Origin: a virus
Taxonomy: Duplodnaviria; Caudoviricetes
Virus record (IMG/VR): IMGVR_UViG_3300044712_000786
Span: 128,001-192,000 of that record
Length of the DNA: 64,000 nucleotides
Direction: 5' to 3' (one strand)
Part shown: positions 12,903-13,059 of the stretch, piece by piece
How positions within the stretch are numbered: the stretch's first letter is position 1
Layout: each line of letters opens with the position of its first letter
The notes under the pieces: generated by a model
What the model was told of the DNA's origin: nothing
Database searches by the model: none
What the model saw: only the letters and a program-made list of their open reading frames with translations
Program-made: the position numbers and the translations under genes

Positions 12903-13059
12903 TGGAGCCCAACGCCTGCTTTGCACAGGTCAACTCACCTATACCTTATTACATCGCAGAGCAAGCACCCCGCTAACTGCCCCGTTCAAGGGGCTTATCG
13001 GCTTTTTAGTAGATGTGTTTTTTCTGTCCCCAGCTAAGGGGTAGTTAAACTAGTTGGGC
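12903..13059 (-). ncRNA. 157-nt tRNA-like RNA (acceptor + T arm with large insert)
   Basis: GCCCAAC/GUUGGGC-U-CCA, T arm CCUG-UGCAAAG-CAGG. Confidence 0.65.

What the first reader, a model, noticed from the sequence alone, without database searches (positions are those of the whole stretch)
12903..13059. 157-nt RNA with tRNA acceptor and T arm plus encoded CCA, but a multi-hairpin body
Seen: GCCCAAC/GUUGGGC-U-CCA and T arm CCUG-UGCAAAG-CAGG flank ~110 nt with hairpins CCCC/GGGG and GCCC-CUUGAAC-GGGC (an anticodon-like UGA loop). It would be processed as a tRNA but cannot fit the ribosome as one.
Basis: partly seen in the sequence, partly recalled or inferred. Interest (0 to 1): 0.6.

Follow-up and report, generated by a model that had tools for sequence, protein, structure and literature searches.

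The report
Oversized tRNA-ended RNA in phage array
A 203-kb phage carries, among its roughly 36 tRNA genes, a 157-base gene that keeps only the top of a tRNA (acceptor stem, T arm, CCA) around an unrelated 123-base body, so it is probably cut out like a tRNA but cannot decode, much like the unexplained small RNAs in the tRNA clusters of phages T4 and T5.

Summary
There is a perfect 7-bp acceptor stem, discriminator U, an encoded CCA and a T arm whose loop, UGCAAAG, is the type used throughout this phage's tRNA array. The element starts 7 nt after the CCA of an unannotated tRNA-Thr(CGU). It ends in the array's standard CCA-AUUU-AUG junction with a real 64-aa ORF.

ARAGORN at default settings and Rfam do not call it a tRNA, tmRNA or Y RNA. 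Removing an "intron" gives no convincing cloverleaf. The body resembles no sibling tRNA.

I found no homologue anywhere, so there is no covariation evidence.

Best reading (about 0.5): a non-decoding, tRNA-ended RNA released by the tRNA-processing enzymes, whose 3' cut also creates the near-leaderless start of the downstream mRNA. The body's role is unknown. The main rival is a decayed tRNA kept only as a processing mark.

The closest known are T4 RNA C/D and T5 RNA1. This scan has already noted oversized tRNA-like RNAs of this kind in other phages.

The parts
12903..13059 (-). Whole 157-nt tRNA-ended RNA gene (called E in this report)
   Evidence: It exactly fills the space between the preceding tRNA's trailer and the next ORF's AUUU-AUG.
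13053..13059 (-). Acceptor 5' strand GCCCAAC (E positions 1-7)
   Evidence: Seven Watson-Crick pairs with 12907-12913; pairing probability about 1.0.
13042..13052 (-). Hairpin 1, UAGU-UUA-ACUA (E 8-18)
   Evidence: Present in the MFE structure; pairing probability about 0.5. It takes the place of the 8-9 linker and D arm. No D stem or D loop is present.
13028..13041 (-). Hairpin 2, CCCC-UUAGCU-GGGG (E 19-32), 6-nt loop, at the position where the neighbouring D-armless Thr tRNAs have their anticodon arm
   Evidence: P = 0.86. Hairpins of the type CCCCUU..GGGG occur 5 times in the genome against 0.38 expected.
12995..13027 (-). A-rich, mostly unpaired linker (E 33-65)
12979..12994 (-).
   Evidence: P = 0.98-1.0. 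Its 20-mer matched only inside a coding gene of two Rhizorhapis MAGs, which is a chance match.
12956..12973 (-). Hairpin 4, G-U-rich 7-bp stem with GCUU loop (E 87-104)
   Evidence: Present in the MFE structure; P = 0.42.
12923..12944 (-). Alternative 8-bp hairpin (E 116-137) that competes with the T arm
   Evidence: P = 0.67-0.98, against 0.01 for the T arm. Forcing the T arm costs 5.1 kcal/mol.
12914..12930 (-). T arm ACCUG-UGCAAAG-CAGGC (E 130-146), with an A.C mismatch at the 49.65 position
   Evidence: The loop UGCAAA is the same as in the sibling tRNA-Gln, tRNA-Cys and tRNA-His.
12903..12913 (-). Acceptor 3' strand GUUGGGC, discriminator U, encoded CCA
   Evidence: The top four acceptor pairs plus U-CCA are identical to those of tRNA-Thr(GGU) at 19436-19369.
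12704..12902 (-). AUUU trailer and 64-aa ORF whose AUG lies 4 nt after the CCA
   Evidence: Twelve homologues at up to 65 % identity. Three related viral loci; in L003 the homologue's N-terminus lies within 3 residues of this start. The same junction occurs at 15 of 36 tRNA-type 3' ends.
13060..13134 (-). Upstream neighbour: a 68-nt D-armless tRNA-Thr(CGU) at 13134-13067, followed by the 7-nt spacer AUUUUAA
   Evidence: Paralogue of 19436-19369. It folds as acceptor, anticodon arm and T arm. ARAGORN and Rfam do not call it.

Best explanation
E is a real, tRNA-derived gene of the phage's tRNA/ORF array that no longer decodes. It is transcribed with its neighbours as part of a long precursor. 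RNase P cuts at G1, just after the AUUUUAA spacer. An endonuclease cuts in the AUUU trailer, and trimming stops at the encoded CCA. This releases a 157-nt RNA whose two ends form a tRNA top half (7-bp acceptor stacked on a 5-bp T stem). That top half acts as a processing and stabilising handle for a 123-nt unrelated body. The same 3' cut creates the 0-4-nt leader of the downstream 64-aa ORF's mRNA. Shown here: the anatomy, the array grammar, the absence of a decoding arm, and that the downstream ORF is real. Inferred: co-transcription, the processing steps, stability, and any role in trans for the body.
For: Perfect acceptor stem, U73, encoded CCA and a T arm with the array-specific loop. The 5' end lies 7 nt after the CCA of tRNA-Thr(CGU), comparable to the 5-nt gap between tRNA-Tyr and tRNA-Thr(UGU). 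The 3' end sits in the exact CCAAUUUAUG motif, which has 9 exact copies on this strand; with one mismatch allowed there are 23 matches in the window against 7.0 expected. Each exact copy I examined follows a tRNA-type end. Fifteen of 36 such ends are followed at +3 or +4 by the ATG of an ORF of at least 58 aa. A chance acceptor partner occurs in 1.1 % of shuffles. The downstream ORF has homologues. There is no tRNA, tmRNA or Y RNA call and the body shows no similarity to sibling tRNAs. Annotated precedents exist in tRNA clusters: T4 rnaC and rnaD, and T5 RNA1, 'tRNA-like stable RNA with unknown functions'. T4 RNA C and D are detected by RNA-seq and Northern blot, and their role is unknown (PMC9697503, PMC3014915).
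Against: No homologue was found, so there is no covariation and no sign of purifying selection. RNAfold strongly prefers a hairpin that destroys the T arm (P of T arm 0.01). The body is not more structured than shuffles (z = -1.3). About 14.5 % of the array is unassigned, so a non-functional remnant would not stand out. There are no expression data.
Confidence: 0.5

Rival explanations
1. E is a decayed tRNA (pseudo-tRNA). A former tRNA, perhaps of the D-armless Thr type, took a roughly 100-nt insertion or rearrangement. Only its acceptor/T helix is still kept, because it is the processing mark that frees the downstream mRNA. The body is junk and the released RNA has no role of its own.
For: The top of the acceptor stem plus U-CCA is identical to tRNA-Thr(GGU). 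Hairpin 2 sits where the Thr tRNAs have their anticodon arm. The body is not significantly structured. E is a single-copy orphan. The array tolerates about 14.5 % unassigned sequence. The junction grammar gives the helix a job independent of the body.
Against: The body shows no residual similarity to any sibling tRNA. Hairpins 2 and 3 are strong G-C hairpins of one shared type. T4 and T5 keep comparable RNAs as stable species.
Confidence: 0.27
2. E is a working mimic of the tRNA acceptor end. It could be charged (Thr-like G1-C72, C2-G71, U73). It could instead soak up host factors or defence toxins that act on tRNA acceptor ends or CCA, as a decoy that protects the phage's own tRNAs.
For: A free, encoded CCA on a canonical 12-bp helix. 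The acceptor top is shared with the phage's Thr tRNAs. Phage tRNAs are known to counter tRNA-targeting defences (PMC10264068, PMC11464382).
Against: There is no anticodon for ThrRS (G35 and U36 are identity elements, from established knowledge). There is no evidence of any partner. The predicted ensemble disfavours the T arm. The idea is speculative.
Confidence: 0.1
3. E is a tRNA gene interrupted by an intron or insertion that is removed to give a normal decoding tRNA.
For: With the threshold lowered to 70 %, ARAGORN draws a tRNA-Pro(GGG) with a 65-nt intron. Nine of 1,940 in-silico excisions give a tRNA-Ser(GCU) call; of 20 body shuffles, 18 gave no call, one gave 1 and one gave 2.
Against: Both models have mismatched anticodon and D stems, and they place the 'intron' in the D-arm region. 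Two of 20 shuffles also give calls. At 65-90 nt the insert is far too short for a group I intron. By hand-folding, the array appears to cover most amino acids including Ser and Pro, so no decoding gap is evident (sequences; anticodons read by hand).
Confidence: 0.05
4. E is a miniature tmRNA-like rescue RNA: a tRNA-like domain plus an internal tag-coding message.
For: An acceptor, T arm and CCA around a multi-hairpin body is the tmRNA layout. An A-rich stretch precedes a possible GCC-started frame of 9 codons ending in UAG (read directly).
Against: Position 3-70 is C-G, not G.U. The putative tag has no hydrophobic C-terminal degron. ARAGORN in tmRNA mode and the Rfam tmRNA models find nothing. 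At 157 nt it is far below known one-piece tmRNAs.
Confidence: 0.03
5. E is a chance juxtaposition: a 3' tRNA fragment whose acceptor strand happens to find a partner 140 nt upstream.
For: The simple structural scan gives many spurious 'long tRNAs' elsewhere in the window.
Against: A perfect G-C-rich partner is expected in only 1.1 % of shuffles, and here it sits exactly at the tRNA-type spacing from the preceding CCA.
Confidence: 0.04

Closest known systems
Phage T5 RNA1 (rna1, T5s03, NC_005859 30501-30644), annotated 'tRNA-like stable RNA with unknown functions'
   Same: About 144 nt. It lies inside the tRNA cluster on the tRNA strand. It has an acceptor-like terminal helix and a canonical T arm around a body far too long for a tRNA. 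Its function is unknown.
   Different: T5 RNA1 keeps a Leu-type D arm and a UUCAACU T loop, and it has no encoded CCA directly after the helix. E has no D arm, a G55-type T loop, an encoded CCA and an ORF starting 4 nt downstream. There is no sequence or covariance-model similarity.
Phage T4 RNA C (species 1, 139 nt) and RNA D (species 2, 119 nt), genes rnaC and rnaD
   Same: Small RNAs encoded at the end of the tRNA cluster on the tRNA strand. RNA C ends with a canonical T arm followed by a strand that partly pairs with its 5' end. They are detected experimentally but their role is unknown (PMC3014915, PMC9697503).
   Different: The terminal pairing in RNA C is imperfect and no CCA is encoded. 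RNA D shows no T arm in the fold. They are unrelated to E in sequence.
Canonical tRNA (Rfam RF00005), especially this phage's own D-armless tRNA-Thr genes
   Same: A 7-bp acceptor, N73-CCA, a 5-bp T stem with a 7-nt loop, the same trailer, and the same position in the array. The acceptor top is identical to that of tRNA-Thr(GGU).
   Different: There are 123 nt instead of about 41 (or about 34 in the Thr genes) between the acceptor strand and the T arm. There is no D arm and no 7-nt anticodon loop. RF00005 gives no match even at E up to 10.
tmRNA (SsrA) and tag-less tRNA-like-domain-only forms
   Same: A tRNA top half with CCA enclosing a non-tRNA body.
   Different: E has no G3.U70, no credible tag and no pseudoknot evidence, and no model matches it.
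Bacterial and phage Y RNAs (YrlA, RF02553)
   Same: A tRNA-like module in a phage that also encodes a protein earlier scan notes describe as Ro60-like (DUF2828, 25877-27352; Pfam match).
   Different: From established knowledge, in YrlA the acceptor end is closed and the RNA's termini form the Ro-binding stem. E has free tRNA-type termini with CCA. The only weak RF02553 match lies elsewhere, at 16847-16960. E lacks the clamp-plus-ACAGCAA 'handle' of the phage's other small RNAs.

Membership tests
Canonical tRNA (RF00005) | 7-bp acceptor stem, discriminator, 3' CCA (encoded or added) | tested here: met
   GCCCAAC/GUUGGGC-U-CCA, all Watson-Crick.
Canonical tRNA (RF00005) | 5-bp T stem with 7-nt T loop stacked on the acceptor | tested here: met
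   ACCUG-UGCAAAG-CAGGC with one A.C mismatch. The loop is the type used in this array. It is thermodynamically disfavoured.
Canonical tRNA (RF00005) | D arm, and an anticodon arm of 5 bp with a 7-nt loop containing U33; total length about 70-95 nt; model score at least 29 bits | tested here: not met
   157 nt. The hairpins have 6-nt loops. There is no RF00005 match even at E up to 10 and no ARAGORN call at default settings.
Intron-containing tRNA | Removing one contiguous segment leaves a cloverleaf with intact stems and an anticodon loop | tested here: not met
   Of 1,940 excisions, only 9 gave weak Ser(GCU) calls with mismatched stems. Two of 20 shuffled controls also gave calls. The low-threshold Pro(GGG) model is poor.
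tmRNA | G3.U70 alanine identity pair | tested here: not met
   Position 3-70 is C-G.
tmRNA | Tag reading frame with a resume codon, ending in a hydrophobic degron; detected by tmRNA models | tested here: not met
   The only GCC-started frame encodes 9 residues without a degron (read). ARAGORN in tmRNA mode and Rfam find nothing.
Y RNA / YrlA (RF02553) | Termini form a Ro-binding stem; the tRNA-like module has a closed acceptor end | tested here: not met
   E has free CCA termini, and RF02553 gives no match within E.
Phage tRNA-cluster stable RNAs (T4 RNA C/D, T5 RNA1); a kind, not a curated family | Encoded within a phage tRNA cluster on the tRNA strand, 100-160 nt, with tRNA-like terminal helix and T arm | tested here: met
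Phage tRNA-cluster stable RNAs (T4 RNA C/D, T5 RNA1) | Accumulates as a discrete stable RNA | not testable with these tools
   No transcript data are available for this metagenomic phage.
Phage tRNA-cluster stable RNAs (T4 RNA C/D, T5 RNA1) | Sequence or structure homology to the T4 or T5 RNAs | tested here: not met
   Model R1 found nothing in L138 or L139. blastn against the phage collection found nothing.

The most novel reading that the evidence does not exclude
E is not a relic but an active acceptor-end mimic. It would be a CCA-ended RNA with a Thr-type acceptor top, whose tRNA handle lets it be matured, and possibly charged or bound by factors that recognise the acceptor. Its body would carry a function in trans, for example as a decoy against host toxins that attack tRNA 3' ends, or as a non-alanine rescue-type RNA.
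Probability: 0.1. Interest if true: 0.75.

Novelty: new member of a known kind. Interest (0 to 1): 0.35.

Why it matters
Oversized tRNA-like RNAs in phage tRNA clusters have long been known (T4 RNA C and D, T5 RNA1) and remain without a function. This example reduces the design to its minimum: an acceptor/T helix with CCA, and nothing else tRNA-like. It also ties that helix physically to the start of a protein gene only 4 nt downstream, within an array where that junction recurs 15 times. If the helix proves to be a processing handle that both stabilises a cargo RNA and creates near-leaderless mRNAs, that would give a testable rationale for this kind of RNA and for a mitochondrion-like 'tRNA punctuation' of phage operons. 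As it stands, E is a single orphan sequence, so its value is as a well-defined candidate and not as a demonstrated mechanism.

Tried and rejected
Searches for homologues, all negative:
- blastn (distant mode) and megablast against 50,697 phage records.
- Exact and degenerate patterns of the E 3' half, and of the Thr-tRNA design, in IMG/VR.
- A body 22-mer in JGI metagenomes.
- A body 20-mer in GTDB genomes, which gave only chance hits inside a coding gene of two Rhizorhapis MAGs.
- A single-sequence covariance model (R1) over 374 kb of fetched loci, the whole of the phage's own genome, and the full records of Myrna, Satis, Frankenweenie and two IMG/VR contigs.

Searches by synteny:
- The downstream 64-aa ORF has relatives at no more than 65 % identity, and none of those inspected follows a tRNA.
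- Relatives of the upstream ORF, the ParB-like protein and the DUF2828 protein were uninformative.
- The ten neighbouring proteins checked have no ≥90 % relatives from other genomes apart from two short fragments.
- The one small JGI contig that might carry a close relative was not returned.

It did surface tRNA arrays with the same odd T loops (L093 and others). These contain no E-like element.

Readings rejected:
- tRNA with an intron.
- Two fused tRNAs: no internal acceptor partners were found by inspection of the sequence.
- tmRNA, and Y RNA or the 'handle' RNAs.
- A body derived from a sibling tRNA.
- A 124-nt 'long tRNA' at 18357-18234 proved to be an artefact of my scan. It is tRNA-Tyr followed by tRNA-Thr(UGU).

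Full report
What is there. The window is bases 128001-192000 of a 202,704-bp IMG/VR phage record with direct terminal repeats. On the minus strand, from about 22,963 down to 4,837, lies an array of tRNA genes interleaved with small ORFs. ARAGORN of these genes and Rfam a few more. A hand-built scan for acceptor, T arm and NCCA raises the count to about 36. Nearly all encode CCA. Most have unusual T loops (UGCAA, UGCGA, AGCGUUA or GGCAG types, with G at position 55) and are followed by AUUU or UUUU.

The finding (called E here) reads on the minus strand from 13059 to 12903. Its 5' GCCCAAC pairs perfectly with GUUGGGC and is followed by U and CCA. Directly stacked on this is ACCUG-UGCAAAG-CAGGC, a 5-bp T stem with one A.C mismatch. 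Its loop has the same UGCAAA as the neighbouring tRNA-Gln, tRNA-Cys and tRNA-His. Between the acceptor strand and the T arm lie 123 nt instead of about 41.

Check of the observation. The second hairpin is not: it is GCCCC-UUGAAC-GGGGC, 5 bp with a 6-nt loop. The 7-nt 'UGA' loop requires a register with only 3 pairs.

A perfect partner for the 3' acceptor strand arises in 1.1 % of shuffles of the upstream 260 nt. In E it begins exactly 7 nt after the CCA of the preceding gene. That gene (13134-13067) is a 68-nt tRNA-Thr(CGU) without a D stem. It is a paralogue of a tRNA-Thr(GGU) at 19436-19369. Neither ARAGORN nor Rfam detects either one. E shares its top four acceptor pairs and U-CCA with the GGU gene.

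At its 3' end, E carries the exact motif CCAAUUUAUG. This has nine exact copies on this strand. With one mismatch allowed there are 23 matches in the window against 7.0 expected. Each exact copy I examined follows a tRNA-type 3' end. The AUG opens a 64-aa ORF (12898-12704). That ORF has 12 homologues at up to 65 % identity, and in L003 the homologue's N-terminus lies within 3 residues of this start. In the array, 15 of 36 tRNA-type ends are followed at +3 or +4 by the ATG of an ORF of at least 58 aa. E therefore obeys the array's grammar at both ends and fills its gap exactly.

What it is not. RF00005 gives no match in this stretch even at E up to 10, and no other Rfam family matches E. ARAGORN finds nothing at default settings, and nothing in tmRNA mode.

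With the threshold lowered to 70 %, ARAGORN draws a tRNA-Pro(GGG) with a 65-nt intron, but the stems are poor. I then deleted every internal segment of 55-94 nt, giving 1,940 variants. Nine variants gave a tRNA-Ser(GCU) call with a mismatched anticodon stem and a 3-bp D stem, with the 'intron' placed in the D region. Two of 20 body shuffles also gave calls. I reject the intron reading.

The tmRNA reading also fails. Position 3-70 is C-G. The only GCC-started internal frame (9 codons) has no degron.

The Y RNA reading fails because E has free CCA termini. It also lacks the clamp-plus-ACAGCAA handle of the phage's other small RNAs. The body shows no similarity to any sibling tRNA.

Structure. 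RNAfold gives -54.4 kcal/mol (z = -2.0). The acceptor (P about 1.0), hairpin 2 (0.86) and hairpin 3 (0.98-1.0) are robust. Hairpins 1 and 4 are uncertain (about 0.5 and 0.42). The T arm has P = 0.01, because an 8-bp hairpin (E 116-137) competes for its 5' strand. Forcing the T arm costs 5.1 kcal/mol and then produces a long helix, 41-50 with 119-128. Four of 33 sibling tRNAs also have a predicted T-arm probability below 0.1, so this weakens the tRNA-like fold without excluding it. The body alone is not more stable than shuffles (z = -1.3). Hairpins 2 and 3 share the form CCCCUU..GGGG. That form also makes up the variable arm of the array's tRNA-Tyr, and it occurs 5 times in the genome against 0.38 expected.

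Relatives. I found none. All eight IMG/VR scans, both metagenome scans, the GenBank phage collection, a GTDB pattern scan and a covariance model built from E returned nothing beyond E itself.

The nearest protein relatives are actinophages, found through a vWA protein: Myrna and Phabba at 46-48 %, and several large Streptomyces phages such as Satis at about 40 %. Their tRNAs are canonical and lack an encoded CCA. Satis and Frankenweenie do carry their own odd trio. It consists of a tRNA-Ile, a tRNA with a 3-nt or 17-nt 'anticodon loop', and a tRNA-like RNA of about 118 nt. These are analogues of E, not homologues. So there is no covariation evidence for or against any part of E.

How it most likely works. 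From established knowledge, the coaxial acceptor/T helix with its 3' CCA is the part of a tRNA that RNase P, 3' trimming and CCA repair recognise. E retains exactly this and nothing else tRNA-like.

I therefore infer the following. E is excised from the array's precursor like a tRNA and yields a 157-nt RNA with protected, tRNA-like ends. The same 3' cut leaves the downstream ORF with a leader of at most 4 nt.

The phage's genes are poor in Shine-Dalgarno sites: only 23 % of ORFs of at least 120 aa have even a 4-mer. Starts in an AU-rich, unstructured context are thus the norm. A start 4 nt after a folded tRNA would plausibly need that cut.

Whether the 123-nt body does anything cannot be decided here. 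It could be a cargo on a tRNA handle, as in T5 RNA1. It could instead be debris from an old insertion. I put 0.5 on a processed, non-decoding tRNA-ended RNA and 0.27 on a pure relic kept as punctuation. Smaller weights go to an acceptor-end decoy or charged mimic (0.1), an intron (0.05), a tmRNA-like RNA (0.03) and chance (0.04).

Comparison with what is known. The GenBank records annotate T4 rnaC (139 nt) and rnaD (119 nt), and T5 RNA1 (144 nt, 'tRNA-like stable RNA with unknown functions'). All three lie inside tRNA clusters on the tRNA strand. Their folds show a canonical T arm and terminal pairing in RNA C and in RNA1, and RNA1 also has a Leu-type D arm. T4 RNA C and D are expressed, and their roles remain unknown (PMC3014915, PMC9697503).

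E works like these RNAs in layout and location. It differs in having no D arm, an encoded CCA, a G55-type T loop and a tightly coupled downstream start codon. It shares no sequence with them.

Earlier notes of this scan describe similar oversized tRNA-like RNAs in other phages, so the kind has been seen before on other DNA. E itself has no look-alike outside its own genome in the scan's notes.

Verdict. E is a real, well-delimited, non-decoding tRNA-ended gene. It is a new, sequence-orphan member of a known but unexplained kind. Interest is moderate.

Noticed in passing
window 13067-13134 (-), 19369-19436 (-), 18234-18308 (-): Three tRNA-Thr isoacceptors (CGU, GGU, UGU) are missed by ARAGORN and Rfam. 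The CGU and GGU genes are 68 nt, have no D stem (13 nt between acceptor and anticodon stem) and have a 6-nt T loop, UGCAAU. The UGU gene has a G1.A72 mismatch. The GGU and UGU genes have C at position 33.
   Followed up: partly
window 4837-22963 (-): Fifteen of 36 tRNA-type 3' ends are followed at +3 or +4 by the ATG of an ORF of at least 58 aa. AUUU or UUUU follows almost every CCA. Several ORFs also end inside the next tRNA's 5' part. This looks like tRNA punctuation of a polycistronic array.
   Followed up: partly
whole genome G000: Only 23 % of ORFs of at least 120 aa have a 4-mer Shine-Dalgarno match, and the regions upstream of starts are A/U-rich. This suggests an SD-poor host (possibly Bacteroidota-like), although the nearest protein relatives are actinophages.
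   Followed up: no
window 18313-18400 (-): An unannotated class II tRNA-Tyr(GUA) with variable arm CCCC-UUCG-GGGG and T loop AGCGUUA. It is followed after AUUUU by tRNA-Thr(UGU).
   Followed up: partly
window 17510-17586 (-): A tRNA-Met(CAU)-like gene with a poorly paired acceptor stem. It ends in CCA-AUUU-AUG, where the AUG starts the ORF at 17505-17224.
   Followed up: no
L132 (Streptomyces phage Satis MH576962, 88443-88938) and L134 (Frankenweenie OQ921725, about 94760-95272): A conserved mini-cluster. It holds a tRNA-Ile(GAU), a tRNA whose anticodon loop is 3 nt (Satis) or 17 nt (Frankenweenie) with acceptor GCCCAYG, and a tRNA-like RNA of about 118 nt with a Leu/Ser-type D arm and a long body.
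   Followed up: partly
L093 / G001 (IMG/VR contig of 64,610 bp, 59 % GC): About 30 tRNA genes with encoded CCA, the same odd T loops (UGCRA, AGCGUUA, GGCAGCA) and several CCA-AUUUAUG junctions. Protein similarity to this phage is almost nil. The tRNA design seems to travel across very different phages.
   Followed up: partly
window 8600-8695, 10552-10651, 11421-11519, 11595-11690, 17132-17223, 19265-19368: A series of gaps of about 96-104 nt in the array with no ORF or tRNA assigned. They may hold further small RNAs.
   Followed up: no
window 25877-27352 (-): A 491-aa DUF2828 + DUF7788 protein, matching the PHROG family labelled 'RNA-binding protein'. Earlier scan notes describe it as Ro60-like. 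It lies 13 kb from E, and homologues occur in 711 GenBank phage records.
   Followed up: partly
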